A DNA stretch of 64,000 nt from NCBI GenBank assembly GCA_043228905.1, contig JBHGNT010000018.1, positions 1,488,001-1,552,000 on the forward strand. The letters are read 5' to 3'. Below, one piece after another: positions 1-35,375 of this stretch (position 1 is the stretch's first letter; every line of letters begins with the position of its first letter). Under the pieces are notes generated by a model. The model saw nothing but the letters and a program-made list of their open reading frames with translations, had not been told where the DNA came from and searched no databases. The DNA is from Azolla caroliniana (lineage: Eukaryota > Plantae > Polypodiophyta). A program made the translations under genes and the position numbers.

Positions 1-620
1 TCGTTCGTGTTCCATTTCTCAGTGAGGACAACATGGTCGCTCATGCCCATTGGTGTTAAATACCTCGTCTTGTGGAAGGGTTACTCCTTGTCTAGGATTT
101 ACAAAATACTTTAGAGGTGATCTAAGATTTTCATCAACAATATCCCCTTAAGCCGACAAACGATTTGGAAGCCATCGTTGGAGGGGGGATAATGTCAAGA
201 TTCGAACTCTTGACATGACCATGTTATAATCAAGTGTTATGTGTTAACCACACATCTAGCATATAATCATATGTATATACTTCCTCATTGTAGGTTTTAG
301 CTAGCATCATGTGCATAATTTCTCCCTTGTATTATTTACTCTTGGCACATGCATGCGTACCTACTGCCGACATGCTCTATTGTATCACATGCGTGCAACA
401 GGTATGCATGCCACTTAGTATAAATAGTTGAGTTCACCTTGAAGGAATTCAAGGTGAACAACGCCAGTCATGGACATATCAATCTAGTATTCTCATTTCA
501 CCCATCTTCTCTCCTTAATCTTCATCTCTATCTTTATGCTCTTGTGTTATTCCGTCATCGCTCCGTCGTAGCCTCATCATCCGTGCTTCGTCTTAGTTCG
601 CACTTGGTGTGTCCGTGACA
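1..620 (+). mobile_element. 3' end of a Ty3/gypsy chromovirus-type element (G0): chromodomain remnant, PPT and 3' LTR
   Basis: 55-90 reads VKYLVLWKGYS, matching the chromodomain YLVxWKGY motif. PPT GGAGGGGGGA lies at about 180-189. The LTR runs TGTCA(193)...TGACA(620) with TATAAATA at about 419. LINE sequence resumes at 621. Confidence 0.75.
193..262 (-). promoter_or_regulatory. tRNA-like A/B-box module in the G0 LTR (antisense to element)
   Basis: Minus strand TAGATGTGTGGTTAACAC...TGTCAAGA-GTTCGAA-TCTTGACA, an 8-bp stem around a B-box loop. Confidence 0.55.
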
Positions 621-622
621 GT

Positions 623-928
623 ATGAATGCTCGTACAAGAAGTTTCCAACTTGATTCACAAGAATCTTTCATGCCATATATCTCAAGGATGCAAGAGGAT
701 ATGCAAATGTATAGCCACTCTTCTAGTGAGGAAAAAGATCCGGACCAATTTGGGAAACTCCTACAAATCTGCAATAGTACCCGATTGCTTATTGCAAATG
801 GTGTTTCCTTATGGCCCAACACTAATGGTTTTACATGTAGAAAACACAATGGAAATAGTGTGATTGACTATGTGCTACTTTCTGAAGGTATTTTGAATCA
901 TATACATAAATTCTCACTTGGTGAATAG
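623..928 (+). pseudogene. LINE AP-endonuclease C-terminal fragment
   Basis: Motifs (D)MNART and FTC..NGNSVIDYVL, followed by SDHR just past the stop. Confidence 0.75.
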
Positions 929-1161
929 ACACCGAAATCCGATCATAGGACTTTGTGTATTGATCTCAAATGTATGCATAGGTTTGATTGTGAGAAGGCC
1001 ATTAAAGATAGTAAACAACCTCACTTGAGCATGAACCTTAAGCGAGACATATTCCAAGATAGTTGAGGATATGTTACAAATGACAAAGATACAACATGTT
1101 GCCACATGTCATAGACACACCAAGCGCAGACTAGGACGGAGCACAGATGATGGGACTACGT

Positions 1162-1617
1162 TGTTACGGGCATGACCATATAATATCCCGTGGTGAGAAT
1201 TTACCATAGTATTCTATACACGTGGATAAGTGTGGGGGTTAAACGAGAGTGTAAAGAAGGGGAGGATTACTTTTAATCCTCGGGATTGAGACAGCCCATT
1301 AGGCCAAGTGTGAACTTGCTTGGGGCCTTGGGAATCGCTATAAATAAGAGGCCTAGCTACCCTCATTTCATTATCTTGTTTACTACGTCAAGACTCTGTC
1401 TTGTGGTGGGTCAACTCTTGTAGTGAGCGCGCCAGCACCAGGTACGACTCGACGCCACGACGGTGGTATGGGACGCTGATCAAGGCTCGAGTCTATCTCG
1501 ATCCCTTCGCTCGGATGTGGTCGGGTGGATTGGCACCCTTCTTTCTCTCTCTCCTTTCTATCTATTTATCTTTATTCTATCCTTATCTAATGCTTACATT
1601 AGTCTATGTCTCTAATA
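1162..1617 (+). mobile_element. Solo LTR of another family nested in the previous solo LTR
   Basis: TGTTA...TAATA termini (eroded TAACA) with a 5-bp TSD TACGT (1157-1161 / 1618-1622) and an internal TATAAATA. Confidence 0.7.
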
Positions 1618-1959
1618 TACGTAGCGACGGATGAACTTCGCAAGGCAAGGAACTCTAGATGTTGTGAGTGACATGAGGGCATGAAGACAGAAATGAAGAT
1701 CAAGGAGACAAAGATGAGGTGAAACGAGAATACTAGATTTATGTGTCAATGACTAGTGTTGAATCCCTTGAAAGGGATCAAGGAGGTTACAAGTATTTAT
1801 ACAAGTTTCGAGATTGAATATCTCTAGAATATACTTGAGAAATATCTCTAGAATATACCATACAATATTTCCAGAATATACTAACAAGTAGAATATTCTA
1901 ATCCTGAAATGTACTATATGCTAGACTATACAATACAAAACCATTATATACAAATACTT

Positions 1960-2028
1960 GTTCATATCAAAATGGTCGAGCATGATATCTTGTTGATGTG
2001 AGGTTGCAAGTTCAATCCTCACCAACTA
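1960..2028 (+). promoter_or_regulatory. tRNA-like A/B-box module in the solo LTR (antisense to element)
   Basis: TATCAAAATGGTCGAG...GAGGTTGCA-AGTTCAATCC, with 44-nt A-to-B spacing. Confidence 0.5.
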
Positions 2029-2624
2029 TGTATTTGATGTCACTATGTTGTGACACCACACTAGAATGCAAATGAGAATTTTTTAAGAAAGTCATCCTCT
2101 CTTGTACAAATAAATGTTTTTCGACCAATCGCACATCATGGAAATGCACCAAGAAATGTAGGAAAAAATGGTTTGATAAAGAATGTCATGAAGCTCGAAA
2201 GTGCCTTATGGTTTTGGATGTAGTTAAGGATAAAGAAAATTACCAAAAGCATTTGCATGAGTATGAAAGGCTTATTCAAAGAAAGAGAAGAATATGGGAA
2301 GTTACTCAACAATTTCTCCAAACTCAAGAGAAAGCACATGTCTGTGCTAAATTTTGGGGAAATCTAAAGGGGAAATGTGTTGAGAGTTATGGTGACTTAA
2401 CTCTTCATGACTTGTCTATGCATTGTAAGAATTTATATGAGTTATCTCTTGCCGGAAAGATGATATGTTATGGTTCTCTTTCACATATGTCTCCCTTCTT
2501 TACAATTGAAGATATATGCATAGAACTTAAGAAATTGGCCTCTCGAAAGGCAAGCAATCTTCAATGTATAAAGGTTTAAATGCTCAAATGGATGGGAAAG
2601 GAAGCACATGTATAGATAAGCGAT

Positions 2625-4073
2625 ATGTTTAATAATGCATTGCAACATGGTATGTCGTATGATACGACTACAACTTGGATCAAACCTTTACATAAAGGTG
2701 GAGATGTAAATAATCTAAACAACTATCGAACCATCATGGTTGGCTCGTTAATGACAAAACTATTTGGATGTATAATGGAATCAAAGATAAGTGTATGGGC
2801 TTATGGACAAGGTGGGTTTCGAAAACACCATAGCACCATTGATCATCTTGTCACCCTTTATTAATGGAGGAAAGTCGTCTTAGAGGTAAAGGTTTATATT
2901 GTTGCTTTGTAGACTTCAAGAAAGCTTTTGATATGGTACCTTGTGAGCATCTTTGGAGGCGAATGGAAGAACTTGAGGTGCCAACTGAATATATTCTTGC
3001 AATTTCCCGAATTTATGAGAAGGTTATATGTTGTGTGCATATGAGAGATACACTTTCAGTTTTTTTCAATAACACTATTGGTGTTAAGCAAGGATGCCCA
3101 CTCTCACCAACATTATTTGGTCGATGCATTGATGAATTAGAAGAAATGGTTGCCAAGTTTGTAAAGGAAGAATGTGTTGAAGAAGTTGTCATTGGGAATG
3201 TTGTGATTATGCTTTTGTTATATGCGGATGATGTAGTCCTTTTTGCAAATACTTTAGGAGATGCACAAACGCTTATGAAGGCATTGGAAAAAAAATTGCA
3301 TGCATACTAAATTAAGTGTCAATAGCTCTAAAACAAAGATTATGCTTGTGAAGAGACAAAAAAGAGATAAACCATGCATTATGTACAACAATGAGCCACT
3401 TGAATGTGTGGAAAGCTTCAAATATTTTGGCCTTGAAGTTTCTTCAAATCATAGATGAAATGAATATGCTACACGCCGCTTAGAGGTGGGTAAGCGAGCA
3501 TACTATGCATTTGAGAGCACGTGCAATCTTGGAGATATTAAATGTTGGGTCCTCAAGAAATATCTTTTTGACACTTTGGTGACACCGGTTCTTCTCTATG
3601 GGGTGGAAGTATGGGGTGGCAATATCCCTAAAACTACGTGGAAAGAGTTTGAAAATGTCCAAAAACATTTTTTTACAAAGTTTCTACAAGTTAAGAAACA
3701 AACGCCTTACACCCTCCCCCTCCTTGAGACAGGATCGCTTCCCATTGAGATCATGGCCATGGAAAGGGTTGTTGAATACATGCTTAAGGTTCAAAAAAGT
3801 CTCTCACATCGACTTCCTAGAATTGCATGGGAAGCAAGCAAAAAGATCTAAAAGACACATAAAAGCAAAATTTTGTGTTCCGGTTGGATGCAAGATATAG
3901 AAAAATGGTTTGGTAGATGGGATGCGAGACACTTGCCTCATGATGCATCACTAGATTCCTCTGTAAATGAGGCCTTTTTGCAATGCCAATGTATCATGAC
4001 ATGGGACAAATGGGGAAGCTCACGCTTCACACATTACACATTATACTATACATGTTGCACCTAACTACAAAAC
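2625..4073 (+). pseudogene. LINE reverse transcriptase, frameshifted
   Basis: Motifs NNYRTI, GFRK..STIDH, FVDFKKAFD, GVKQGCPLSPTLF, LLYADD and LLYGVEVWG. Confidence 0.9.
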
Positions 4074-4316: not shown

Positions 4317-5194
4317 TCACCCACACTTGGTTGGCTTCGGCTCTTCCGCGGGTTCGCCCTCGGCTTCTTCAGCCGATCCGAAATCGAATTCGTCATCCGA
4401 CTCGGCGTCACGGTCTTCTCTCCCCCTTCCGTGGTCATTCAGGACATCTCTCCCCCTCAAGTTCGGCACGTCGAGGTGACGCAACCCAAGCTCACCCGAG
4501 AATTGCCGCAACTTGGCCAGTCCAAGAGGCTTGGTGAAGATGTCGGCGGTCTGCCAATCCATCGGAACATGTTGAAGTTCGACTTCGCCAGAAAGGACAC
4601 GCTCACGGACAAAATGGTAGTGCACCTCAATGTCCTTGGTCCGTGCGTGGAAAACGGGGTTCTTCGCAAGCTGGATGTTGCTGAGGTTGTCGTAGTAGAT
4701 CGTCATCGGATCGGACACCTCCTCTTGCAGGTCCTTAAGTAGCCTCTTCAACCATATGGCTTCGCATGTCGCGACAGCCGCTCCTCGGTACTCGGCTTCG
4801 GTGCTCGATAGTGCAACTATCGGCTGCTTCTTACTGCTCCACACTACTGCGGCACTCCCAAGAGAGAACGCGTATCTGGACGTGGATCGGCGATCGACGG
4901 CATTGCCGGCCCAATCACCATCGGTGTAGCCGACCAACTGCGAGGTTGTACCAGTCCGATATAGAAGTTCCCGGTCCTTAGTGCCGCTTACGTTGTCGCG
5001 AAGATTCGCGCGTGCAACTATCGGCTGCTTCTTACTGCTCCACACTACTGCGGCACTCCCAAGAGAGAACGCGTATCTGGACGTGGATCGGCGATCGACG
5101 GCATTGCCGGCCCAATCACCATCGGTGTAGCCGACCAACTGCGAGGTTGTACCAGTCCGATATAGAAGTTCCCGGTCCTTAGTGCCGCTTACGT
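4317..5194 (-). pseudogene. Copia A RNase H segment
   Basis: Motifs GYTDGDWAG, WSSKKQ, STEAEY, HARTKDIEVHYHFVRE and ADIFTK. Confidence 0.9.
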
Positions 5195-5212
5195 TGTCGC
5201 GAAGATTCGCGC
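4811..5212. repeat. 201-bp tandem duplication spanning the Copia A / element B junction
   Basis: GTGCAACTAT starts at 4811 and again at 5012. The 67-aa block is repeated in ORF 4317..5237. Confidence 0.9.
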
Positions 5213-5667
5213 GTGCGTGTGCTACTCGAGCGACCACCGGGGTCTTGGATTGGGGAGGATGTTTGCAGAATTATCAAAGAGATGATGATCAATGTAAGAT
5301 TAGATGAAATTGGTTTACTTGAGAAGAAGAAAGATTGTACACTTGAGAAGTAGAAAAATATGAAGAAGATAAAGACAAATATAATTATATTGATGATAAT
5401 GGTGTTGGTGATATCACATATTGAGCCCCCCTTACACAAGCCCAACTAGAGGCTTTTATAGGTCTTTCCATGCTTGTGACATGCACAAAACCATGGGCTA
5501 AAACCATGGTTTTGTGCACACGGTTTTGCTTATGTCATGCACAAAACCATGGTTCTAATGCACAAACCATGGGTTTAGAACCATGGTTTTGTGCACATGG
5601 TTTTCTATGGTCGTTTCATCTATAATTCGTACTATATAAAAAGGAAATACATAGAATATACACTATA

Positions 5668-5740
5668 TGATAGTTGTCCTAATGGTAAGGCAATCATCTT
5701 GTATCTTAGAGGTGTAAGGTTCAAACCTTGCTTGCACCCC
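5668..5740 (+). promoter_or_regulatory. tRNA-like A/B-box module in the B 3' LTR (second copy at about 11855-11927)
   Basis: TTGTCCTAATGGTAAGGC...GAGGTG(T/C)AA-GGTTCAAACC-TTGC, with 44-nt spacing. Confidence 0.6.
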
Positions 5741-7261
5741 TGTCCATGAACTTAAGTGCCACTAAGCCTTAGGTTTATTTTCTAAGTGCATGTGCAATGT
5801 TGCACATCCTTGGTTTATTCGTCTCACTCGGTTTCACACCGTAGCCGAAAATCGTCACGGCAATGTCCCCCACCAAACCCGCACATCCTCCGGTATGTGC
5901 CGAGAAAGGTGAAGAGGTGAGATCTTTGGCAACGGTGATCAACGGAGTTCCTTTGCACGCTCGTTGACCTCGTCTGACTTCGTCTTCCACTTCGAGTATG
6001 CGCAATCTTTCCAACCGAACCACCGTAGCCACCCGATCCACCATATCCGGCACTCACACCTTCTTCCCCGATCGGTTGTAGTAGATCTACCAAACAATGT
6101 CATTGATCCGATTGCTCTTCCTTCGTTCACCGCGCGTGTCCTTCGATTGGACTCCTGGCCACTCCTCGCGCTCACCATCTTCAACTGGGTATTGTGGATC
6201 GTTCGTGTCGATCTCCGATTAGGTTGAGTTTGCCCTTGTCCGGATCGGTCTCCACCGATCGCTTCTTGGCTCGGTTGGCCTTCGTCTGTATTCGCATTTC
6301 GCCAAGTTGGGCTCAACCGATTGATTTTGGCCGGGTCAGCCCCCTTTTGGATCGGGATCATCCGATCGATTTCCTCCGAATCAAGTTTCGGCCGGGTCGG
6401 CCCCGGTCGATCATCTCCCATGTGGATCTTCCTTCGTTCGGGCCGGAATTCCGGCCGGATCGTCTTCCAGTTCGACTGGTTCTCGACTCTTCCTTCCTTC
6501 CCGCATGATGCTTCTCCATTGAACTCAACCGTGGCTTCATCCTTGGCCTCCTCGTTGGCCACATCCTTCCCTCCATGTATGCTCACCTCGAGCCATATTG
6601 TCTCCTCTCCGCCACCTCCTTTATCTTCGGTCTTATGTTGACACACAGTCTCGACTGCCGAAGTCTTCGAAACCAGTGTGAAGGAATCCCTTCGTTCATG
6701 CACATTTACCTTGTCTTCCTCATCGCCCTTCCGATCGTCCGCTTTTCCGTCCACACATTCCGTCTCTCCGGTCTCACGTTGGCGCACGTGCACAACCGCC
6801 GAAGTCTCTAGAATAGGTGTGGGGATATCCTTTCTTCCTCGATCTTCTTCCTCCTTGTGTTGGGCCTTCGTCTTCCCGTCACCACCTTCCGTCTCTTCGG
6901 TCTCACGTTGGCACACGGGCGCAACAGCCGAAGTCTCTGGAACAAGTTTGGAGAAAGTCTTGACATGGCTATCCGTTGTCGACTCGTCCATAGCCACCTC
7001 CGACTCGATGTCGTTTGTCATGGCTACCTCCTCAATCTCTTCAGACTCAAACACTTTATCTCCCTCAATCATGCAAGCTTTTCTCATGCTTGCACCTTCA
7101 TCACCCGATGTTTCGTACAGAATGCGTGTTCCGAAACATTTATCCTCCCTCGAAGTGGCGTTGTCGTAGTGTATTTCGTACACTACGTGAAAAAGTAAAA
7201 ATAATATAACTGATTTAATTACATATAAATAAATAAAATAATATATCAAGATATTTATCAC

Positions 7262-7332
7262 GTGCATAGGGCAAGATTCGAACCCTATACCTCCACGTAG
7301 CCAAACATCAACTTTACCATTATGCTACCTTA
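7262..7332 (-). promoter_or_regulatory. tRNA-like A/B-box module in the C 5' LTR (second copy at about 9670-9740)
   Basis: Minus strand TAGCATAATGGTAAAG...GAGGTATAG-GGTTCGAATCT. The 3' LTR copy has GGTTCAAATCC. Spacing is 43 nt. Confidence 0.65.
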
Positions 7333-7953
7333 TCTTTAGTGTTCTATAAATAGATTTAATAACTATAAGTCCTTTATTTGCGCCTACCTTTATTAAAAGG
7401 TAAATCATGCATTTTTAGAGTGCGTGAATATTTTATAGAAAAACGCAAGCAACTAAAAAGTGACTCATGCACATCTAGCGTGCATGAGCACTATATTTAG
7501 CAAATAAAAGCAAGGATTAGAAAAGCATCACATGCACATTTAGTGTGCATGAACATATTAGAAAAAAAAGCATGTAGCTATGCTTAGTCTCTCCCATCAC
7601 TACATAAGGATGGGGAGCACAATGTAATTATGTGTGAAATATTTGGAAATTGGATATATTTCCGAAAACACCAACCGATTAATATAATCGTGGGATTCAC
7701 GAAAATAATATAATCTATACTTGTGGGATTCACAAGTTTCTTATATCTTTCTTTCAATCTAAATACATATTCTTATCTAAATATTGATTAATCGAATAAA
7801 ATACACTCGTGGGATTCACGAAATTTCTATCTCTCTTTCTAATAATCTATTCATTACTAGCCTCATCTCATATTCTTCTTTCTCCTAGTCCAAAACCCCA
7901 GTGGTTCCCACCCGACTCACGCAACGATCCGGAGCCGAAAGGCACGACACAGT

Positions 7954-7971
7954 TGGTGAACCCGACGTGAA
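7954..7971 (+). promoter_or_regulatory. Primer-binding site of C, complementary to tRNA-Trp
   Basis: TGGTGAACCCGACGTGAA, identical to the PBS of B. Confidence 0.8.
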
Positions 7972-7987: not shown

Positions 7988-9640
7988 ATGGAGAATCAAC
8001 AAGAGGCGATGAACATGATGATGATGATGTTCGAGAGAATGCTACAAGAACAACGCGAGATGTCGGAGATCACGACAGTAGTACAACGGCTCGTGCAACA
8101 GAACGGGCAATTCGATGGAAAGGACGTGTCACGCTATCTACGTGACTACAAAATGGAGATGTTGCGATATGGTATCTCAGAAAGATTGCAAGTGTTATCT
8201 TTCAACCGGGTGGCTACGGATGAGCTTCAAGAGAGAATCCACAAGATACGACAACAAAGCCCGATGTGGGAGTCCTTTGAAGAAGCTATACGAGACACAT
8301 ATGACTATCTAAGACCGAAGCGGACGAGGACATGGTCCACGAACGGCGGTCAACAGTGGGTGAAAAGCGGCCACCGACTACCACCGAAGGAGAGCTTGAT
8401 GCGGAAGGGTTCGGAGATGCATGAAAAGTCGCAAGTCGACATTGAAGGGGAGCTTAAAACCGAACCAAAGTCGAGGCCAACAAAGGACGAGGAGGAGGAA
8501 GATCGAGGACGAAAGGGTATCCCCACACCGGTTCCAGAGACTTCGGCGGCTGTGCCCGTGCACCAACGTGAGACCGGAGAGACGGAATGTGTCGGTGGAA
8601 AAGTGGAGGACCGGAAGGGCAACGAGGAAGACAAAGTAAATGAGCACGAACGAAGGGATTCCTTCACCATTGTTTCGGAGACTTCGGTACTGGAGCCCGG
8701 GTGTCGACATAACACCGAAGATAAGGAAAGTGGCGGCAACGAAACGAAGGTCGAAGCCGATGCATACGAAGGAGAGATAGCCAAGGAGAACATGGCTATG
8801 GGTGAAACAACGGAAGATGATAATACCGAGGATTCCTACCCACTAATTCTAGAGACTTCGGCGGTTGTGTCCGAGAACCAACGTGAGACCGGAGAGACGG
8901 GAGGTGGCAACAAGGAAGGTAAAGTCGGAAGCCGGTTCGGATGGAAGATGATCCGTCTGAAATTCCGATGTAAACAAAAGCATGACAACGCGAAGGTCGG
9001 GTCTACGATGGGAGAAGCATGTAATACGGAGCACGCACTACGGCACCAAAAGAAGCACGTGCTACGGCGTAAAGAGAAGCACACGCTACGGCGCAAAAAG
9101 AAGCACGCGCTACGGTGCAAAAATAAGTATGCACTACGGGGTAATACGGCGCATGCACTACGATGGAATACGAAGCATGCGCTACGGCCTAATACGACGC
9201 ATGCGCAACATCGAGAAATAAAGCATGCATTAAAGCCGCACAAGGACCTAACAGCGAGCGCGTATTCGGAGGTCGACATCGACGCGTGGGTAGAACCTAC
9301 GGAAGACAAGCGCGGAGTGGAGAGAGACAACACACCGAGATGCTCAAGAGTACCACAAGGGACCATGACAACCACTCATGGCAATGCAAAGAATGAACAA
9401 AGAATATGGTGGATCGGATGGCGACAATGGTTCGGGTGGAAAGAATGGGTCTACTCAAAATGGAGAGACAAAGTTGACATAGCGGGACAAACGGGGGATG
9501 AAGGGGAGACAACGAGCATCGGCAACTTCGGCACATACCGGAGGATGTGCGGGTTCGGAGGGGGCGAGTGTCGTAGTGTATTTCGTACACTACGTGAAAA
9601 AGTAAAAAATAATATAACCGATTTAATTACATATAAATAA
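7988..9640 (+). CDS. Element C ORF: Gag-like N-terminus, acidic repeats, basic KHALR repeats and Trp-rich motif (about 550 aa, uninterrupted)
   Basis: FDGKDVSRYLRDY...WESFEEAIRDTY is Gag-like. The frame stays open through the PPT into the 3' LTR. Confidence 0.65.
   Translation: MENQQEAMNMMMMMFERMLQEQREMSEITTVVQRLVQQNGQFDGKDVSRYLRDYKMEMLRYGISERLQVLSFNRVATDELQERIHKIRQQSPMWESFEEAIRDTYDYLRPKRTRTWSTNGGQQWVKSGHRLPPKESLMRKGSEMHEKSQVDIEGELKTEPKSRPTKDEEEEDRGRKGIPTPVPETSAAVPVHQRETGETECVGGKVEDRKGNEEDKVNEHERRDSFTIVSETSVLEPGCRHNTEDKESGGNETKVEADAYEGEIAKENMAMGETTEDDNTEDSYPLILETSAVVSENQRETGETGGGNKEGKVGSRFGWKMIRLKFRCKQKHDNAKVGSTMGEACNTEHALRHQKKHVLRRKEKHTLRRKKKHALRCKNKYALRGNTAHALRWNTKHALRPNTTHAQHREIKHALKPHKDLTASAYSEVDIDAWVEPTEDKRGVERDNTPRCSRVPQGTMTTTHGNAKNEQRIWWIGWRQWFGWKEWVYSKWRDKVDIAGQTGDEGETTSIGNFGTYRRMCGFGGGECRSVFRTLREKVKNNITDLITYK
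9020..9240 (+). repeat. 24-bp tandem repeat (about 9 units, xxKHALRx)
   Basis: Repeated AAGCA(C/T)GC(G/A)CTACGG cores at 24-bp spacing. Confidence 0.8.
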
Positions 9641-11361
9641 ATAAAATAATATATCAAGATATTTATCACGTGCATAGGGCAGGATTTGAACCCTGTACCT
9701 CCACGTAGCCAAACCTCAACTTTACCATTATGCTACCTTATATTTAGTGTTCTATAAATAGATTTAATAACTATAAGTGCTTTATTTGCGCCTACCTTTA
9801 TTAAAAGGTAAATCATGTATTTTTAGAGTGCGTGAATATTTTATAGAAAAACGCAAGCGACTAAAAAGTGACTCATGCACATCTAGCGTGCATGAGCACT
9901 ATATTTAGCAAATAAAAGCAAGGATTAGAAAAGCATCACATGCACATTTAGTGTGCATGAACATATTAGAAAAAAAAGCATGTAGCTATGCTTAGTCTCT
10001 CCCATCACTACATAAGGATGGGGAGCACAATGTAATAGGTGTGTGAAAAATATTTGGGAAATTGGATATATTTCCTAAAACACCAACAATCAATAAAATA
10101 TACTCGTGGGATTCACGAAGTTTAAGATAATCTATCTCTTTCAATCTAAATTCATATTCTTACATAAATATTGATTAATGTAATACTTGTGGGATTCACA
10201 AGGTTTGATCTCTTTTCTCAATCTACTCTAATCTATTCTAAATTATTTCAATTTATTACTACGATTTAGATAAACTAAAACAATTATACTTGTGGGATTC
10301 ACAAGTTTCTATATCTCTTTCTTATAATCTATTCATATTCATAACTAGATTAGCCTCAAATTCTTCCTCCTCCTAGTCCAAAACCCCGGTGGTTCCCACC
10401 CGACTCACGCAAACGATCCGAAGCCGAAAGGCACGACAGCGTTCGCCGTCCTCGAGTCATCGGCCTCCTCCTTGGCCGTCGTTTCTTCGTAAGACAAGAA
10501 GGTGACTTGTTTCGCACCTTCTCTCTCGGTACTGTCATACTGAACCTGAGCCTTTGTATCGGCCACTTCATTAACCCGCATTTGTTGGGAGGTCTCTTCT
10601 GCCTCGATCAGCATTCGCCTCGGTTTTGTCTCCCTTTTGAGCTTCATTTCTTTTGTTGGTAGCGCGTTGTTGCATCTCGTCCCTCTTCGATCGTCCCTCA
10701 TGGGCCGTCTTGTTGTCGTCAATATTCTCGTTCGCCCCTTATCGTGTAGTCGGCATACACTTTCCACTTTGCTCCAATCCTCGATGAGGCCATTTGCACC
10801 ATCATCTTCTTCAAGTTTGAGGCTAATCGCCATCCTTTCCATTCGATCGATTGACTTCACGAACATAAGGACCTTATTGACCCCCACCAATCTTTGTTCC
10901 CGCTCCGAGAGTTGAGAAAAATGATGCTCGAACTCTACGAATGCTTGTGCCGCGCCTTGGTGGGTCTTCGCTGATGTCACCCATTAGTCGAAGTTGCGTC
11001 GATCTCGTCCCTTCAGTCTCTCATAGCCATATTCCTCCAATAGAGCCTTCTTGAAAGTCTCCCACAAATCATGAGCTTCTAGAAGCTCTTTTACATCTTT
11101 GAAGATCAGTTGAGACACCACCCGACAAAAGTACTCTAGCCTCATAGCTTTGTCCACACCTCTTGAATCCATCTCCGCATTGTAGACTTTTAGGAAACTT
11201 TGGACTTCGGCACCGTTGAAATAGCTCACTCGCTCGACTACCCTCTCGACGGCTTGTTGGGCTTCATTTCGTCTTTTCCCTTCTCTTAGAAACTCCATCA
11301 TCCTTTTTTACATTGCCTCCATGAGATATTCGCCATCCATCTTCGTCCTCCCTTGCTGCTC

Positions 11362-11379
11362 TTCACGTCGGGTTCACCA
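11362..11379 (-). promoter_or_regulatory. Primer-binding site of B, complementary to tRNA-Trp
   Basis: TGGTGAACCCGACGTGAA, 5 nt inside the 5' LTR end. It is complementary to the plant cytosolic tRNA-Trp 3' end ...TTCACGTCGGGTTCACCA as I recall it. Confidence 0.8.
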
Positions 11380-12053
11380 AATGATGTCGCGAAGATTCGC
11401 GCGTGCGTGTGCTACTCGAGCGACCACCGGGGTCTTGGATTGGGGAGGATGTTTGCAGAATTATCAAAGAGATGATGATCAATGTAAGATTAGATGAAAT
11501 TGGTTTACTTGAGAAGAAGAAAGATTGTACACTTGAGAAGTAGAAAAATATGAAGAAGATAAAGACAAATATAATTATATTGATGATAATGGTGTTGGTG
11601 ATATCACATATTGAGCCCCCCTTACACAAGCCCAACTAGAGGCTTTTATAAGTCTTTCCATGCTTGTGAAATGCACAAAACCATGGGCTAAAACCATGGT
11701 TTTGTGCACACAGTTTTGCTTATGTCATGCACAAAACCATGGTTCTAATGCACAAACCATGGGTTTAGAACCATGGTTTTGTGCACATGGTTTTCTATGG
11801 TCATTTCATCTATAATTCGTATATAAAAAGGAAATAGATAGAATCTACACTATATGATAGTTCTCCTAATGGTAAGGCAATCATCTTGTATCTTAGAGGT
11901 GCAAGGTTCAAACCTTGCTTGCACCCCTGTGTATGAACTCAAGTGCCACTAAGCTTTAGGTTTATTTTCTAAGTGCATGTGCAATGTTGCACATCCTTGG
12001 TTTATTCGTCTCACTCGGTTTCACACCGTAGCCAAAAATCGTCACGGCAACGT

Positions 12054-24085: not shown

Positions 24086-24088
24086 TGA

Positions 24089-24173
24089 TGTTGGAAGCAA
24101 TGTCGTCTGTGCGGAAGATCTTGAAGCACTCGATTCCTGTTTATTCCCTGTGTATGACAGAATGTAGGTCGTT

Positions 24174-24210
<37 letters not shown>

Positions 24211-29252: not shown

Positions 29253-29289
<37 letters not shown>

Positions 29290-29461
29290 CACAAAAGAGT
29301 CTTTATTCCATAAAGCAAATAATACAACAGCCAACCTCACAAAGAGGTTACAAGGTCACTATATATAGTGACCGACTTAGGGCAACTACCCTTTATGATA
29401 ATTTCATAAATGGCCAAAACGGAATAGTGTGAATACGTCCATTATACACATGTATTCGACA
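24089..29461 (-). mobile_element. Intact Ty1/copia element F2
   Basis: LTRs 24089-24381 and 29168-29461. Met PBS and PPT present. TSD CTGTC (24081-24085 / 29462-29466) with 3 extra nt at the left junction. Confidence 0.96.
24575..28588 (-). CDS. Copia F2 Gag-Pol polyprotein
   Basis: Uninterrupted ORF colinear with F1, with about two dozen aa differences counted by eye. Confidence 0.97.
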   Translation of the reverse strand: MASTSGSSEMSLRKFDGSNFNFWKEQMQDYLIVKGQIDPIEHEEPPEGYKPIEWQKLDRIVRATIRMHLSESVYFTVQSCTTAFELWKTLSDTYEKKVAATKMFLIRRLYNLRMKESDSVQAHLNEYESISSQISSQGTAIEDELRAMILMSSLPPSWETFVTTVCNASTTAVKYSEVTSAILTEAARRKSFAKDSTDDAYVVQGSTDRSNIRGRDSSRPPNNQRRRSQSRDNRICNYCKKPGHIKADCRALKNKNNKKSGRHEEINYVSFSADVLPEDPNILSIENPVGSEVLLTTEESSTWLLDSGASFHVTPHRSQFRQYTIRHSDSVRVGNSQHCDIIGIGTVELNLAGGSTLVLHNVRHVPELSRPLISVGQLDEDGIRAGFSSGGWTLHRGNLLLARGPKIHSLYPLHVTLREGNLFLVDIPVSSLWHRRLGHLSKAGITHLSRAGYIPKLSFSDHQFCEHCQYGKQAAASHPTSAPRETRPLDLIHSDVCGPMPHQSLGGASYFVTFIDDSTRKVWAYPIRTKDRVFSIFSDWLAMVENQTDRKLKCLRTDNGGEFKSEEFVKFCRQRGIRRELTAPHSPEQNGIAERMNRTIQERIVSMLQHSGLSDGFWAEALLTAVHIINMSPSRPLGLQIPQELWIGSKPNYDKLRIFGCEAYALIPKDDRRKLAPRSRKCIFLGYGSDGEMGYRLWDPERRQIVRSSDVVFNESAMNPSVEKPIEVRRVTFSDVPTLQEGPALNTRSAPRVAEPYTTDSDNSDSAQQTNPLSDHPTTIPDATSPIMPRRSERLSQPPERYSPGIFFTDAGEPTSYEEASTSVDSATWHLAMESEMHSIRANKTWDLVELPRNRRALPCKWVYRLKEMSDSTTPKYKARLVAKGFRQEYGVDFDEIFSPVVKMTTLRFLLGVVAADNLELIQLDVKTAFLHGDLEEEIYMEQPKGFVATGQEHLVCRLRKSLYGLKQAPRQWYKKFDDFIQSIGFSKSDEDHCLFTNTAQDGSPIFLIIYVDDMLISGRHAGELADLVRQLRLKFAMKDLGPARHILGMKISRHRDKRHLFLSQTDYIGRVLERFNMQSAKSASTPLPMNLRLSQRDCPTSGPEGEDMKSVPYAPAVGSLMYLMVATRPDISHAVGVVSRFMHNPGRSHWNAVKHVFRYLVGTKDHGILFGPNRTSGVVGYTDSDFAGCIDSRKSTTGYCFKFGNGAISWKSKLQECTATSTTEAEYVAASDAAKEALWLGRLAHTFRQVEQDSAPVVYSDSQGAVALSKNPVHHNASKHIDVRYHFVRDCVISGKIGLEKISTTDNVADGMTKCLSADRFRSLRHQMGVTTNQSG

Positions 29462-29521
29462 CTGTCATCGGCACTGTTCTTCTCTCTTCCCATCCGAAGG
29501 GACCTGTCTCCCAACACTTCT

Positions 29522-31937
29522 TCCCTTTTTCTTTGCACGTAAGCCGTCTCCTCAGATTCCTGCGTGGGGAATGCACGGTCGAGTCTCCACTACTCGTCGA
29601 CTCTTCATCAGACTGGTCAAACCAACTCAGTCGTTCATTCGGTCCACTTATCCGAAATGAAATCGGACTCTCTTCGCGGGTATTTCAGGCTCATCCGGAG
29701 GCATCTCAGTCTTGCTGACCTCATCGTCAAAGCTCGGATTGGAGTTGAGGTCCGGAGTCGGAGGCAAGTGCCAGGACGCGGACTCATCAAACACAACATC
29801 GCGGCTCACGCACGCTTGTTTGGTGCGTGGGTTATAACACTTATAACCCTTCTACTCGTCCGAATAACCGACCAAGATGCATTTCTCGGCCTTTGCGTCT
29901 AGCTTCCTCCGTTTCTCCTTCGGCACATGCACATATGCAATGCTACTAAAAACTCGTAAGTGTCGTAAGTTCGGCTTCGTTCCGAAATATAGCTCATGCG
30001 CCGACATTTTTACTCCGATCCAATTCTGGATGTATACCGCGGTTCGTACCACCTTGGCCCAGTAGAACTTGGGCAAGCTCTTCTCCTCCAGCATTGCCCA
30101 TGCCGCTTCCACAACCGACCGATTTTTCCTCTCGGCCACGCCGTTTTGCTCCGGCGTGTATCTACAACTAAATTCGCGTCGAATTCCCATCTGTTGTAGA
30201 TAACCGTTGAATTGACCGGAAAAGTATTCTTTTCCGCCATCTGACCGCAGGCACTTGATCTTTCTTCCCATTTCCGTTTCCACAAACCCTTTGAGGTCCT
30301 GGAAACAGTCGAAGACTTCGCTCTTCCTCTCAATGAGGTAGATCCACATGTGTTGCGTGTAGTCGGTTATGCTCATTGGGGAAGGGTAGTCGGTGTTGCT
30401 TCCCAAGCTGGCAGGCTTCACAAATTTGTGCCTTCCGGCCACTAAATTTGGGCAATCCGAACACCACCTGTTTCGATTGCAGGTCCTGAAGCCGCTGGTA
30501 GTTGACATGGCCTATCCGCTTGTGCCATCAGTCGATGTCTGACTCGACTTTTTGTCCCTTCGCGAACATTGCAGTGCCACCGTCACTAGAGTCGAGGATA
30601 AACATCCTCCCATCTCTGCGCCCTTGCACAATAACACGGCCTTCTTCCTCAATGAAGCACCCGAGATGCGTAAACCGAACCTGCGTCCCCTAGTCGACGA
30701 TCTGCTTGACCAACACCAGGTTCTTTGTGATTGTCGGGACGTGTAGCACGTTCATGAGTTTCCCTTTCTGCCCAACATGGCTCAAGGGAACTTCACCTAC
30801 ATTCGCGATTGGATATGGAGTGTTGTCTCCAGTTGCGACTACTCCTGGTTGTGTCGGTTTCTCAAGGTACGAGAACCACTCCTTATGGCTCGTCATGTGA
30901 TTTGACGCACCGGAGTCGACGTACCACACCTCGTCCGATTTTGGGGTGGTCTACTTCATTGAGTTTGCTTCGTGTCTCGTCACGAAGACTGACCCTTTTC
31001 CGGCTTCTCTGGATCCTTCAGCGTAGTGCGATCGTTGCCGATTTCCTTTGTCGGTCTGTCCGGAACCTGATCCGGACCCAGTTCTCTCTGAATTGAGCGC
31101 TTTTTCCAGCACTCGCTCTCCCTATGGCCTTTCTTGCCACAGTACTAGCATTCCGCGACGGATTTCCCTTGTCGGTTCTCGTCGCCTCGACTCCCCCTGT
31201 TTCCGAAGGGTCCGGATTTGCTGTCGGCATCACTTCGGTGCCTTCTTCCTTGATCATGTTGGCCGCCTCCATTGCACACCAACTCGCCTCGTCCTCCACG
31301 TCCACGGGGCCTATCTCCCTCCGTGTACAGCATCTTGTTGTCGGTGTGCGTGCTCATTGACGCACCCGCGTGGTTGTCCTCTACCAGGAGCATCGACTGT
31401 AAGTTGAAAAAGGACGGTGTATTCTCCCCAGGTACACACAGCAGTTCGGAACGCCCCGAACTTCGATGCCAAACCCCCAAGATAGACCTAGACGATCTTG
31501 CTTTCCTCGATGTTCACATCGATGGAAGCTAAGGAGTCGCATATGTCCTTGATCTTCGAGGTATAGTCAGCCACCGACAAATCGCGTTGTCATAGGTTGC
31601 TCAACTCCTGTCGGAGTTGAAGCTTCTTGGCAGTGGTGCTCGCGGCGAAGATCTTCTTGAGATTTTCCCATGCACCCTTCGGCGTTTTTGCATCTCGAAC
31701 GTAGCTTAATAGTTGTTCGCCCACACAAGACGCGAAGCAGTACAGCACTCTGCTCGCCGATTGTTCCCACGCTGGGAAATCTTTGTGTGTCGATTCGGGT
31801 GTTGTGTCATTTGCTCTGTCAACATAGCTCCAATAACCGTGCCCGAGCAGGTACTGGTGCATCTTGTAGGACCAAGACGTGTAGTTGTTTCTGTCGAGCT
31901 TCTCTGTTGGAAGCAAGCTAGCCATTCCTCTATCCAT
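29522..31937 (-). pseudogene. Copia A gag-protease-integrase segment
   Basis: Motifs KLDRNNYTSW (gag), WYVDSGASNHM (PR) and LRSDGGKEY / TPEQNGVAERKNR (INT); broken by stops and frameshifts. Confidence 0.9.
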
Positions 31938-33031
31938 CGGTTTTTCCTGTTCTTCTTGGTTAGTTTTTCTTTCAAGCTATGTCGGTTGCCGAGGTTCTCA
32001 ACCCTCGCGTTCTGATACCATGTAAAAGATTATGTGCGGAAGCAATAGAAAAACGAACACAGAGAAAATACGCAGGTTTAATGGAGAGCTTGAGTATACA
32101 CAGTACGCAGGAGAGACAGAGAGAGAACACAATTCAAAAAATACTAACTCTGTACATACATCGTGCTTAATGAGCACCTTTTATACAAGCCTTGACAATG
32201 GGCTGACACAAGTGTTGACAGTACTTGGCTGCTCATAAATGAGCCTCGACACTTACTCCCAAAACTATTCCTTACGAGGAATATCTTTCAAATGGCCTCG
32301 CGGTTTACGCACCGCTACAACCATGTTATGCGTACCGATTTTACGCACCTAGTCTACGCATTGGTTACGCATCGTATTACGCACAAATGTTGAGCTTGTC
32401 TCTCAACAAAAACCATATTCTTGACCATATCTAGTCAAGTGTTGTGTTCGAACCAACACATCCAAATATATGGTCATGTTATGTATATCTTAGTAGATTA
32501 TCTATTTCAAGTTCTAGGAGTTTTTGGAAAGTTCTAGAACTAGAAGGTTCTTGGGGAGAATAATGTCACAGACATAACTGCCACGCTTCTGAAAAAACGG
32601 TCGTAAAGGGGAGGATAATGTCACGGACATTATTGCCACACTTCGGAAAGACATCCATAAAGGGGAGGATAATGTCACGGACATGACAACAATCATGTCA
32701 AAATTCGAACTCTTCACCTCTTGTATATAGTCAAGTGTTATATTCTAACCAATACATCCAAATACATAGTCATGTCATATATATCTCAGTAGATTATTAG
32801 ATTATTTTAGACCGTTCGAGAACTAGAAGGTTCTAGAGGGTTCTAGAATATTCTCCCAAATATTCTAATGCATGTAGTTCGACTCACAGTATAAATACTT
32901 GTAACCTTTGTGGTCCCTTTCAAGGGATTCAACACCAGTCATTGACACATCAATCAAGTATTCTCGTTTTGCCTCATCTTCTCTCCTTGATTTACATCTC
33001 TATCTTTATGCTCTTGTATTGTTCCTAGCGT

Positions 33032-33873
33032 TGTTGTGAGGATTTTCGGCCATGATGTGAAAACCAAGTGGGATGGATAAAATGGGGATGTCCAACATTG
33101 CACATGCACTTGGAAGATTTGTAAAAGAAACAAATGTAAAAAAGGAAGGGTAAATGTAAGGTGTTAAAAGTGCACTACGAAGATTAATAAAGTGTAAATG
33201 TGATGTGCACTTATGTGCACATGCACATGTAGACTAAAGGGAGAGTACATGAAGTACGGGTGTAGTGAGTAGTGGGCATAGTGTGTGTCTGAGGAGAGGG
33301 AGTTAAGGCTCCATCAATCTCTCCTCCTAAGATCAAGGTCAAATATTCCCCCATTGAAAGAAGGGGGGGTTGACCTCTTCTTTATGTAATGTGCCTCACC
33401 CCTTACTACTATAAAAGGGAGTGAGGGGCCATTTTTGAGGGGCTTCCACCTTTTGGATTTTCTTTGGGGAGTCACCATTTTGTCGTTAGAGGTAGACCGT
33501 AAGGATTTTCTTCATCATCTTTTCCCCGATTTCATTTTAGGGTTTCGGTTTTAGGTTCCCCTTTGGTATCATTTCCCTTCTCTCGATTAGAGTTTAGTTC
33601 TTCTTCCTATTCTCTTGGGTTTTCTTCTATTTGTGCTTGAGTCCGGCTTATGGCCGCAGTTGTAATCATATCATGGCTTTCATGTCTTATAGTGTAATTT
33701 GCTTGTTTAACCTTGTCTTGATCTATTTCTCTATCGTGTTAATCTCTTCTTCTTTCTCCTCCCCTTTTGAGCTCGAAGGCTTTAAGGGATAAGCTCCCAT
33801 TTCCCGTCTATTCCCTAGTCCAAGACCCCCGTGGTTCCACCGAAGCCGACACGTACTCGCGGATTTCTCGATA
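33032..33873 (+). mobile_element. Solo LTR related to the element B family
   Basis: The start TGTTGTGAGGATTTTCGGC...CAACATTGCACATGCACTT and the end CCAAGACCCC.GTGG match the B LTR. TSD GCGT/GTGT. Confidence 0.75.
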
Positions 33874-34059
33874 GTGTCTTAAGTTCCTCAACTCGTCGCT
33901 CCCAACTTCCCGAGTTTCTATCCCCATCACGTCGAGTTCCACGTTCGTAACCTTATTGTTCGTAGCCTCGTCATCTGTGCTTTGTCGTAGTCTAGGGTTG
34001 GTGTGTCTGTGATAGTTTGAATCCCTTCCAACTAGAAGCATCACCTGTCTTCATCATGG

Positions 34060-34480
34060 CCCTTGCTTCTAGACTTACCATCATCACCGTCCTTGCTTCT
34101 AGAGTTCCTGTCATCAACATCCCTTCATTTGCTATCTTCCTCGCCATCGCTATCTCCTATTTTATTCTCATTGTTGTCTCTGTCTTTTAGTTTCTTATCA
34201 TGATCATCCCTATCTTTGTACTTCTTATCATCTTCCACATCCCTATCTCTGCGTTTTCGGTCATTATCATCCTTCTCCCTGTGTTTCCTGCCATTTTCAT
34301 CTCTATCTATGTGTTTCTTACCATCACCATCCCTATCTATGTGTTTCTTATCATCTTCGTCCCTGTCACTGTGTTTTCTATCATCCTCTATATCTTTGTC
34401 TTTGTGTTTCTTTTTATCCTCAACATCTCGATCTCTGTGTTCCTTATCCTCTTCATCTATTTCTTTGTTTCCATCATTGC
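34060..34480. repeat. Degenerate pyrimidine-rich tandem repeat of about 30 bp
   Basis: Recurring TCATC.TCCCT.TCTCTGTGTTTCTTA units. Confidence 0.65.
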
Positions 34481-34582
34481 TATAATCACATTCATTTCTT
34501 CCAAAGACACTTCCTCAACATCATCTTCAACACCTCTTGGTGTCTTCATCAACACTACTTTTCCTAGCCTTTCATCGACGTC

Positions 34583-35200
34583 AAGTGTTCCAGTTCCCCG
34601 TGAGGATCGCACATGGTCGCTCACGTCCGTTGGTGTTCGTGTCTCCGGTGAAGACCGCGCATAGTTGCTCACGTCCATTGGTGTTCGCATCTCCGGTGAG
34701 GACCACACATGGTCACTCACACCCGTTGGTGTTTGCGTCTCCGGTGAGGACAGCACATCGTCTCTCACGCCCGTTGGTGTTCGCATCTCCGGTGAGGACC
34801 ACACATGGTCTCTCAGGCCCGTTGGTGTTCGCGTCTCCGATGAGGACCGTACATGGTCGCTCACGCCCATTGGTGTTCCAGTTCCCGGTGAGGACCGCAC
34901 ATGGTCGCTCACGTCCATTGGTGTTCCTGTCTTCGGTGAGGACCGCACATCGTTGCTCACGTCCGTTGGTGTTCCAATTCCCGGTGAGGACCGTACATGG
35001 TCACTCACACTTAGGTTGGTGTTCCAGTCTCCGGTGAGGACCAAACATGGTTCCTCACGCTCACATTGGTGTTCCATTATCTAATGAGGACCATACATGG
35101 TCGCTTAACCCCTTGGTGTTCCAGTCTCCGGTGAGGACCACACATGGTCGCTCGCGTTCACCTGTGCTCCTATTTCTGGTGAGGATTGCTCATGGTCACT
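34583..35200. repeat. 48-bp tandem array (about 13 units) inside D
   Basis: Unit GGTGAGGACCGCACATGGTCGCTCACGCCCGTTGGTGTTCGCATCTCC, seen as 16-aa periodicity in the ORF track. Confidence 0.9.
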
Positions 35201-35306
35201 CACTCCTCAACGTACTTTGCTTTTCTCTTTCAACTCACCCCTACACCATGCTTTCAAAAAGGCGGTCGTAAAGGGGAGGATAATGTCACAAACATGACAA
35301 CAATCA

Positions 35307-35375
35307 TGTCAAGATTTGAACTCTTGACCTCTTATATATAGTCAAGTGTTGTGTTCCAACCAACACGTCCAAATA
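35307..35375 (-). promoter_or_regulatory. tRNA-like A/B-box module in the D 3' LTR (second copy at about 32696-32765)
   Basis: Minus strand TGGAC-GTGTT-GGTTGG-AACAC (D-arm-like stem)...GAG-GTCAAGA-GTTCAAA-TCTTGAC (T-arm-like stem). Confidence 0.6.

What the first reader, a model, noticed from the sequence alone, without database searches (positions are those of the whole stretch)
193..35375. Gypsy-type LTRs from two lineages carry an antisense tRNA-like (Pol III A/B-box) module in U3
Seen: modules in G0 (193-262), the solo LTR (1960-2028), both B LTRs (5668-5740, 11855-11927), both C LTRs (7262-7332, 9670-9740) and both D LTRs (32696-32765, 35307-35375). Each is about 70 nt, with an A-box-like motif (e.g. 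TAGCATAATGG), usually GAGGT at the variable-loop position, and a B-box (GGTTCGAATC / AGTTCRAAT) 43-50 nt downstream, often closed by a T-arm-like stem. All are antisense to the element and lie in the 5' (U3) part of the LTR. The intervening bases differ greatly between families while the boxes and spacing persist. The two C copies each differ by one base from the perfect GGTTCGAATCC. I see no such module in Copia A, E or F LTRs, and only a degenerate trace in the solo LTR at 33032-33873. Known: TFIIIC binds A/B boxes, tDNAs act as chromatin barriers in yeasts, and Cassandra TRIMs carry 5S-derived Pol III units in their LTRs. Inference: a tRNA-type analogue of Cassandra shared by tRNA-Trp-primed/4-bp-TSD and self-primed/5-bp-TSD elements. 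It could insulate the LTR promoter from silencing or make antisense Pol III RNA. I do not know of a description of this, but cannot search.
Basis: partly seen in the sequence, partly recalled or inferred. Interest (0 to 1): 0.85.

Follow-up and report, generated by a model that had tools for sequence, protein, structure and literature searches.

The report
Backward tRNA promoter inside retrotransposon LTRs
Several jumping-gene families of a seed-free plant carry, near the start of their end-repeats and always facing outward, a 70-base piece with the two promoter boxes of a tRNA gene, which likely acts as a portable RNA polymerase III site beside the element's own promoter, although no binding or transcript has been shown and tRNA-derived end-repeats are already known in forward orientation.

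Summary
All eight modules sit at the stated places, antisense, in U3; 7 of 8 beat shuffled LTRs, the Copia LTRs have none. A profile from the window alone found five more in metagenome LTRs, all antisense, one in an RT/integrase-coding element. It is not a tRNA; what persists is the boxes and an extended hairpin around the B box.

The interpretation needs three corrections. (1) tRNA-derived LTRs are described: Helenus (Kojima 2024). These differ: antisense, in long LTRs of coding elements that keep a TATA box. (2) The module is patchy (4 intact, 2 decayed of 20 LTRs; not one gag clade), and common origin across the two lineages is not shown. (3) Selection evidence is mixed: boxes beat flanks between families (66/83 vs 217/338, p=0.009), not within family C.

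Best reading: a captured tRNA/SINE-type Pol III site facing outward beside the Pol II promoter (0.45); main rival, a passenger relic (0.3). No expression data. Unchecked notes of this scan report similar LTR modules in fungal genomes. New variant of a known kind.

The parts
193..620 (+). G0 LTR (3' LTR of a D-related, self-primed-type family; PPT directly upstream)
   Evidence: TG..CA ends, PPT 181-192, TATA-like box at LTR position 227; 80% to D2 over 110 nt
193..262 (-). G0 module: weak A box 248-258, B box 199-208 inside a perfect 9-bp hairpin that starts at the first base of the LTR
   Evidence: 3' half z -5.3
1660..2060 (-). Solo LTR, 5-bp TSD CTAGA, R-U5 related to D and G0
1960..2028 (+). 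Solo-LTR module: weak A box from 1965, B box 2009-2018
   Evidence: 16.5, p 0.003
5195..5862 (-). Element B 3' LTR; TSD ACGT at 5191-5194
5668..5740 (+). B 3' LTR module: A box from 5675, B box 5718-5727 in an extended hairpin
7162..7949 (+). Element C 5' LTR; TSD GCGT at 7158-7161; C is nested in B's ORF
7262..7332 (-). C 5' LTR module: A box 7317-7327, B box 7275-7284, 9-bp hairpin, T4 run 45 nt past the B box
7954..7970 (+). C primer-binding site, tRNA-Trp type (isotype recalled, not from a call); same 17-mer as in B
7988..9640 (+). C single ORF, 550 aa, gag-like N terminus, no RT/RNase H/integrase
9569..10438 (+). Element C 3' LTR; TSD GCGT at 10439-10442
9670..9740 (-). C 3' LTR module: A box 9725-9735, B box 9683-9692
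10405..11304 (-). N-terminal part of B's single gag-like ORF (one stop; cut by C); 90% identical to a 687-aa protein with no Pfam domain
11363..11379 (-). B primer-binding site, tRNA-Trp type
11385..12049 (-). Element B 5' LTR; TSD ACGT at 12050-12053
   Evidence: 650 identical, 13 different aligned bases against the 3' LTR
11855..11927 (+). B 5' LTR module: A box from 11862, B box 11905-11914
32430..32476 (-).
   Evidence: E 1e-4
32673..34014 (+). Element D first LTR, interrupted by the solo LTR 33032-33873; preceded by a PPT and short repeats of PPT plus LTR start
32696..32765 (-). D first-LTR module, decayed: A box 32749-32760, B box 32702-32711
   Evidence: 9.9, p 0.15
33032..33873 (+). 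Solo LTR of a 4-bp-TSD sister family of B (shares the first about 85 nt); no module
34015..34027 (+). D self-priming-type site, complementary to 32922-32933, which lies about 26 nt past the TATA-like box at 32890
   Evidence: read from the sequence
35284..35894 (+). Element D second LTR; internal region without a coding domain, with tandem repeats
35307..35375 (-). D second-LTR module: weak A box 35360-35371, B box 35313-35322 in a perfect 7-bp hairpin; no T run before the LTR end

Best explanation
Several LTR families of this plant carry an antisense 70-base cassette with tRNA-gene A and B boxes in U3, likely captured from a tRNA or SINE head and likely kept as an outward-facing TFIIIC/RNA polymerase III site beside the element's own Pol II promoter. 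Shown: the cassette, its position upstream of the TATA-like box, its orientation, the loss of the cloverleaf, a 7-13 bp hairpin round the B box, and its patchy presence among related LTRs. Inferred: it entered U3 at least twice (Trp-primed type; self-primed type) and then moved between Trp-primed LTR families by recombination or was lost repeatedly; only the outward orientation survives because these elements still need Pol II for a long coding RNA, which an inward Pol III unit would disturb; in replicating master copies TFIIIC would bind the B box and keep a tDNA-like open patch or boundary 150-300 nt upstream of the TATA box, with or without a short outward transcript of about 100-130 nt. 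Most genomic copies are probably dead and decaying.
For: Significant A+B score at tRNA spacing in 7 of 8 window LTRs and none in Copia LTRs. Five held-out modules found by a window-only profile in 279 kb of loci collected by primer site, E 4e-9 to 4e-5, all antisense and inside LTRs; L046 and L059 have a near-perfect A box; L019's LTR follows an ORF with RT, RNase H and integrase. Six LTR contexts with unalignable flanks, all antisense, against 77 sense and 0 antisense B-box 9-mers in the Helenus supplement. Between homologous LTR families the boxes are better kept than flanks (66/83 vs 217/338, p 0.009; without the G0/D pair 48/61 vs 185/288, p 0.036) and than the spacer (44/73, p 0.013). In a related organism the B-box region draws 270,000-640,000 summed depth against 13,000-31,000 for spacer and A box, and loose ends there keep the ATGG or GTGG end of the A box behind a changed spacer. 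A TATA-like box remains in all 14 carrier LTRs examined. T4 runs follow within 21-59 nt in 8 of 10 Trp-primed copies.
Against: No expression or binding data. Within family C the boxes are no less variable than their surroundings (3 of 15 box positions vs 23 of 96 others vary at 12% or more, p 1.0), and the B-box-damaging C56-to-T change carries 29-47% of depth in three runs. 14 of 20 metagenome LTRs show no module and 2 more are decayed, including sister families of B and of L046, and autonomous L031 and L057, so it is dispensable. A boxes are weak in D, G0, solo and B; the four self-primed-type copies have no T run before the LTR end, and L008 and L046 none within 120 nt. The bases next to the boxes that form the hairpin are about as well kept as the boxes, so structure may be what is kept. 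The pairwise test used B twice, hand-set windows and AT-rich flanks that align poorly. The four Trp-primed contexts share one module ancestor, so the orientation count may be about 3 independent events, not 6.
Confidence: 0.45

Rival explanations
1. Passenger relic: SINE or tRNA heads landed in U3 a few times, sense insertions were purged, and the antisense ones ride along without function and decay.
For: Patchy presence and no single gag clade (6 changes among 29 rows, AU p 0.0004). Decayed copies L018, L083, D1. No excess box conservation within family C and frequent C56-to-T. Kojima proposes SINE insertion as the origin of such LTRs.
Against: Boxes and hairpin outlast spacer and flanks between families. 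No SINE body, poly-A tail or flanking duplication seen round the modules, and no free SINE family was found in the window (not testable genome-wide). The same module type sits in four otherwise unalignable LTR contexts.
Confidence: 0.3
2. The kept feature is the hairpin, not the promoter: the extended stem round the B-box loop forms on either strand and would act in the genomic RNA or cDNA just past the PPT (plus-strand priming, strand transfer, packaging or integrase end recognition).
For: 3' half folds far better than control windows of the same LTRs (mean z -3.1 for 8 modules vs -0.6 for 104 windows, p 3e-5) and than the same part of 3 real tRNA genes (z -1.3 to -2.0). Reverse complements fold about as well in most copies. 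In G0 the stem begins at the first LTR base; in D 28-30 nt in. Four of 7 predicted pairs show a change on both sides.
Against: Does not explain the A box at fixed tRNA spacing or the GAGGT variable-loop motif; the module lies about 560-620 nt from the LTR start in L046 and L059; most LTR families lack it.
Confidence: 0.15
3. LTR-encoded small RNA: Pol III makes an abundant structured RNA that is processed into small RNAs, as in foamy-virus LTRs, or soaks up dsRNA-binding silencing proteins, as shown for a plant SINE RNA.
For: Precedents: Pol III miRNA cassettes in foamy-virus LTRs (PMC3993851 passages); SB1 SINE RNA binds HYL1 (PMC2408557 passages). Single-sequence folds often show two hairpins. 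The family is very abundant in the runs (summed depth is not a copy number).
Against: The 5' hairpin is no more stable than control windows (mean z -0.9 vs -1.1, p 0.37) and has no consensus fold; stems are too short for miRNA precursors; terminators are not conserved.
Confidence: 0.1

Closest known systems
Helenus TRIMs / TRIMp3 (Kojima 2024, PMC10886601; whole text read; supplement passages)
   Same: tRNA-derived A and B boxes inside both LTRs; not a functional tRNA; PBS, PPT, 4- or 5-bp TSD; several origins proposed, through SINE2 insertion; one family in a seed-free plant (Selaginella); Pol III activity untested.
   Different: Helenus are 311-1263 bp non-coding elements with LTRs up to 323 bp and the cassette in sense orientation (77 sense, 0 antisense B-box 9-mers in the supplement file), proposed to make the genomic RNA. 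Here the cassette is antisense, in U3 of 400-1100 bp LTRs that keep a TATA-like box, in elements of about 2.4-3.6 kb with a single gag-like ORF, a non-coding element, and one RT/integrase-coding element. Kojima screened only TRIMs under 1 kb and remarks that 'not a few' other LTRs resemble part of a tRNA.
Cassandra and Ajax TRIMs (as described in PMC10886601; the 2008 Cassandra paper was not held)
   Same: Small-RNA-gene Pol III unit carried in the LTR; tandem arrays (D and L019 look tandem).
   Different: 5S-derived type 1 promoter, sense, and in Cassandra it drives the element's transcript; here tRNA-type and pointing away.
Foamy-virus LTR Pol III miRNA cassettes (PMC3993851, passages; PMC7693620 listing only)
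   Same: A/B-box Pol III unit inside the LTR of a coding retroelement, alongside a Pol II promoter.
   Different: Those have shown transcripts, terminators and precursor-length stems; here no transcript, no conserved terminator and no supported dumbbell. Their orientation was not checked in the passages read.
Plant tRNA-derived SINE heads such as SB1 (PMC2408557, passages)
   Same: A/B boxes kept, cloverleaf lost and refolded into stem-loops.
   Different: No body, tail or own TSD; travels inside LTRs.
Host elements: Phygy-like non-chromovirus and Tcn1-like self-primed Ty3/gypsy (PMC6317226, passages; PMC2864245, passages); TR-GAG-like make-up (name seen in PMC13570524 passages)
   Same: 4-bp NCGN TSDs (ACGT, GCGT) as given for Phygy; no chromodomain among the Pfam hits of the autonomous relatives; self-priming as given for Tcn1; gag-only coding.
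   Different: Neither passage set mentions an LTR Pol III cassette. Clade assignment is by structural features only; no RT tree with reference elements was built, and D, G0 and the solo LTR have no coding region.

Membership tests
Helenus (TRIMp3) | tRNA-derived sequence with box A and box B inside the LTRs | tested here: met
Helenus (TRIMp3) | TRIM size (311-1263 bp; LTR up to 323 bp), no protein coding | tested here: not met
   LTRs 400-1100 bp; C is 3.3 kb with a 550-aa ORF; L019 encodes RT, RNase H, integrase
Helenus (TRIMp3) | Cassette in sense orientation, able to make the element's RNA | tested here: not met
   All modules antisense; Helenus file 77 sense, 0 antisense 9-mers
Helenus (TRIMp3) | PBS, PPT and 4- or 5-bp TSD | tested here: met
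   B, C: PBS, PPT, 4-bp TSD; solo: 5-bp TSD; D's TSD ambiguous
Helenus (TRIMp3) | Pol III transcription from the cassette | not testable with these tools
   Only contigs were available; no strand or start information
Cassandra/Ajax | 5S rRNA-derived box A-IE-box C promoter in the LTR | tested here: not met
   No Rfam 5S match in the window at E up to 10; motifs are tRNA-type
tRNA gene | Cloverleaf with acceptor, D, anticodon and T stems | tested here: not met
   ARAGORN 0; no RF00005 match; folds
tRNA-derived SINE insertion | Head with A/B boxes | tested here: met
tRNA-derived SINE insertion | Body, LINE-like or poly-A tail and own TSD | tested here: inconclusive
   None seen by eye; AT-rich simple repeats follow the module in C, L019, L046, L059; no computed TSD scan
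tRNA-derived SINE insertion | Free copies outside LTRs | tested here: inconclusive
   Three weak traces in the window are not alike beyond shuffles; no genome held
Foamy-virus-type Pol III miRNA cassette | Dumbbell or pre-miRNA-length stems with terminator | tested here: not met
   5' hairpin not above controls; terminator not conserved
Phygy (Ty3/gypsy non-chromovirus) | NCGN 4-bp target duplication | tested here: met
   ACGT (B), GCGT (C, solo LTR 33032)
Phygy (Ty3/gypsy non-chromovirus) | RT/RH/INT phylogeny with reference Phygy elements | not tested
   No references held; nearest named relatives of L057 pol are Riccia and Adiantum proteins at 57-72%
Tcn1 chromovirus | Self-priming site instead of tRNA PBS | tested here: met
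   D 34015-34027 complements 32922-32933 (feature)
Tcn1 chromovirus | Chromodomain-bearing pol that groups with Tcn1 | not testable with these tools
   D, G0 and the solo LTR have no coding domain here

The most novel reading that the evidence does not exclude
Coding Ty3/gypsy retrotransposons of seed-free plants, from two unrelated lineages, have independently armed their LTRs with an outward-facing tRNA-gene promoter that recruits TFIIIC wherever the element lands, shielding the Pol II promoter from flanking silencing: a portable tDNA barrier, traded between LTR families and scattered in very many copies through the genome.
Probability: 0.22. Interest if true: 0.8.

Novelty: new variant of a known kind. 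Interest (0 to 1): 0.5.

Why it matters
tRNA-derived LTRs have been described only in tiny non-coding elements where the cassette would replace the Pol II promoter, and that paper argued that autonomous partners must stay Pol II-only in their LTRs. An antisense cassette beside a retained TATA box, in gag-coding elements and in one RT/integrase-coding element, cannot serve that role. If it binds TFIIIC, it would be a mobile chromatin element spread by high-copy retrotransposons, and it would give a direct test of whether tDNA-type barriers work in plant heterochromatin: sister LTR families with and without the cassette (B against 33032-33873; L046/L059 against L057/L086) are natural controls. 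If it is a relic, it is still a source of false tRNA/SINE calls and a marker of LTR recombination.

Tried and rejected
No whole genome held, so no genome-wide consensus scan. Functional tRNA: rejected. Dumbbell pri-miRNA fold: suggested by single folds, rejected by matched controls and no consensus 5' stem. Strand of folding: G-U counts favour the module strand in 11 of 13, but shuffle z-scores are similar on both strands, so not used. One shared module across both lineages: not shown. Primer-site scan of viral contigs: 6 hits, none similar to the window. Module-pattern scans: 1 viral and 12 prokaryote hits, no tRNA gene or LTR context on the matched strand; treated as chance matches selected by the pattern. 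Extending 39 short metagenome loci failed. Expression: no RNA holder listed; one guessed-RNA run laid nothing; neither is evidence. Sense-strand tRNA-like look in L043: it is the end of a Copia-like LTR inserted into a B-like LTR. Sense traces in L084 and L062 (E 5e-4, 0.018) are weak, AT-rich, and were not followed. Free SINE copies at 38317-38385, 54980-55003, 46107-46141: not alike beyond shuffles. Landing-pad idea from earlier notes: no insertion sits just upstream of any module in the window or the six carrier loci; the loose-end tables were cut, so not a real test. Literature searches for a prior description returned only Kojima 2024 as relevant; subscription journals and Repbase notes are not covered, and I saw only passages of that paper's supplement.

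Full report
Setting. The window is a nest of plant retroelements: an RTE-type LINE fragment, several Copia elements and the LTR families of the finding, followed by a lectin receptor kinase gene. The best named relatives of that kinase are fern proteins at about 40%, and those of a related retrotransposon pol are liverwort and fern proteins, so the host is a seed-free plant; I cannot say more. No genome was held.

The elements. B (minus strand) and C (plus strand, nested in B's ORF) have the same 17-nt tRNA-Trp-type primer site (isotype recalled), a PPT and 4-bp duplications ACGT and GCGT. An NCGN preference is given for Phygy elements in PMC6317226 (passages). Both carry one gag-like ORF and no pol: C 550 aa, B matching a 687-aa protein at 90% with no Pfam domain. 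D, G0 and the solo LTR at 1660-2060 share an R-U5 core; D has a site after its first LTR that is complementary to a stretch 26 nt past the TATA-like box, the self-priming layout given for Tcn1. These clade names rest on structural features only.

Check of the observation. With a fixed A+B consensus score and 300 shuffles per LTR, 7 of 8 are significant; C is strong, D and G0 marginal, D1 not significant. Five Copia LTR stretches and the solo LTR at 33032-33873 show no module. They are not tRNA genes.

Beyond the window. A scan of metagenome contigs for the primer site gave 120 loci, 80 with long flanks. A profile built from the eight window modules alone found five more modules at E 4e-9 to 4e-5, all antisense and inside LTRs: L019, L008, L046, L083, L059; the next hit was E 0.04. 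A sixth, decayed, was seen by alignment in the C homologue L018. L019's LTR follows an ORF with RT, RNase H and integrase domains, although this is one low-coverage contig in which most of gag is missing from that unit. Of 20 metagenome LTRs scored (those whose start I could place, the carriers, and L043), 4 are significant, 2 decayed and 14 negative; 9 of the negatives are close relatives and L043 is cut by an insertion. Sister families differ: B has the module and the 33032 family, which shares its first 85 nt, does not; L046 and L059 have it and L057 (autonomous) and L086 do not. On a gag tree of 29 rows (25 of 54 hits dropped as short or with the LTR not covered) the 7 carriers need 6 changes, and one clade is rejected (AU p 0.0004); two carrier rows are long branches and 'absent' depends on LTR coverage. 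So the module was gained, swapped or lost several times.

One module or several. B, C, L019 and L046 types share the A-box end, the GAGGT stretch, the B box and the following stem while their flanks are near background, so they descend from one cassette. The self-primed-type modules score 10.3, 6.3 and 5.3 bits, and the solo one nothing, on that profile, against 16.5, 4.5 and nothing for three real tRNA genes. Their likeness is no more than generic tRNA likeness: at least two captures.

Structure. Single folds suggested two hairpins. Against windows from the same LTRs only the 3' hairpin holds (mean z -3.1 vs -0.6, p 3e-5); the 5' one does not (p 0.37). The 3' stem is 7-13 bp, longer than a tRNA T arm, and 4 of 7 consensus pairs show a two-sided change among 9 related sequences. 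Loss of the cloverleaf with new stem-loops is what PMC2408557 (passages) reports for tRNA-derived SINEs.

Selection. For: in four pairs of homologous LTR families boxes match at 66 of 83 positions, flanks at 217 of 338 and spacer at 44 of 73 (p 0.009 and 0.013), and in a related organism the B-box region collects about 20 times or more the summed depth of the spacer and A box (depth is not a copy number, and other U3 motifs peak too). Against: in the complete variant list for family C in three DNA runs, 3 of 15 box positions and 23 of 96 others vary at 12% or more (p 1.0), and the C56-to-T change, which should damage a B box (recalled), holds 29-47% of depth while the tolerated G57-to-A stays under 12%. 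Dead copies dominate such counts, so this weakens but does not exclude selection on master copies. Terminator-like T4 runs follow within 21-59 nt in 8 of 10 Trp-primed copies and in none of the 4 self-primed-type copies before the LTR end. No RNA evidence was obtainable.

Mechanism. An antisense cassette cannot make the genomic RNA, and every carrier LTR keeps a TATA-like box. The most likely reading (0.45) is a captured tRNA or SINE head kept as an outward-facing TFIIIC/Pol III site, set divergently to the Pol II promoter; that tDNAs and B boxes form open chromatin or barriers in yeasts is established knowledge that I recall, and it is untested here. A passenger relic filtered for orientation (0.3), a hairpin needed in replication (0.15) and a small-RNA cassette (0.1) remain. 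Six contexts all antisense would be p 0.03 if independent, but only about three origins are separable.

Comparison. These elements are not Helenus: too long, coding, and antisense where the Helenus file shows 77 sense and 0 antisense B-box 9-mers (the file also holds figure alignments, so counts are not families). Kojima restricted the screen to TRIMs under 1 kb and noted that other LTRs also resemble tRNA parts. Pol III cassettes beside a Pol II promoter are known in foamy-virus LTRs (PMC3993851, passages). Seven searches found no description of an antisense U3 cassette in plant Ty3/gypsy elements. Unchecked notes from this scan describe an antisense tRNA relic in a probably fungal LTR and tRNA-type boxes in chromovirus LTRs of a gut-fungus-like genome; I did not test them.

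Verdict. Real, non-random and recurrent; a new variant of a known kind; function open. Interest 0.5.

Noticed in passing
window 7261-7262, 7279-7280, 7296-7297: At all three CpGs inside the C module only the G-to-A change (plus strand) reaches 12% in the runs, never C-to-T. That is deamination on the module strand, the direction expected from antisense transcription or from minus-strand cDNA; no CpG outside the module was available as control.
   Followed up: partly
window 32550-32690 and 32416-32551: D is preceded by three short repeats of PPT plus LTR start and by a D-like LTR fragment with half a module, suggesting a tandem or aberrantly primed structure.
   Followed up: no
L019 3190-3800: Tandem unit PBS-ORF-PPT-LTR-PBS; the first ORF fuses about 80 aa of gag in frame to RT-RNase H-integrase (deletion or assembly artefact).
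   Followed up: partly
window 7988-9640, 5939-7169 and P0001-P0010: The gag-only ORFs of B, C and relatives end in a conserved tryptophan-rich motif (R-I-W-W-I-G-W-R-x-x-F-G-W) after a long acidic, repetitive stretch; no Pfam match.
   Followed up: no
62-66 nt upstream of the PBS in many loci (e.g. L010, L023, L042, L056, L067): A conserved sense U5 motif reads like a B box in some families (GGTTCRAGAC) but GTCCAARAC in B and C; no A box with it.
   Followed up: partly
window 4069-4073 and 32411-32415; L043: A Copia element spanning 4074-32410 has the duplication AAAAC; a Copia LTR with the same end in L043 is also followed by AAAAC. Possible target preference, n=2.
   Followed up: no
window 5481-5604, 11658-11794; 7394-7572: U3 of B holds a palindromic array of CCATGG-centred repeats and U3 of C repeated CATGCAC motifs, between the module and the TATA-like box; the C motifs are depth peaks in related organisms.
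   Followed up: no
window 13291-29463: Two near-identical Copia copies (96% over 5 kb) with intact 1347-1361 aa polyproteins, nested with a third, and arrays of about 54-nt repeats next to their LTRs.
   Followed up: no
window 4811-5216: A 201-nt perfect tandem duplication that includes the end of B's 3' LTR.
   Followed up: no
window 38317-38385: Weak free-standing tRNA-like trace outside any LTR (16.5 bits, E 0.0017).
   Followed up: partly
L041 2100-3042: Tandem repeats that contain a tRNA-like unit resembling initiator tRNA-Met (resemblance recalled).
   Followed up: no
window 35893-36270: ORF fragment matching Rep_fac-A_C (E 5e-5), into which D is inserted; possibly a Helitron-type or host RPA remnant.
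   Followed up: no
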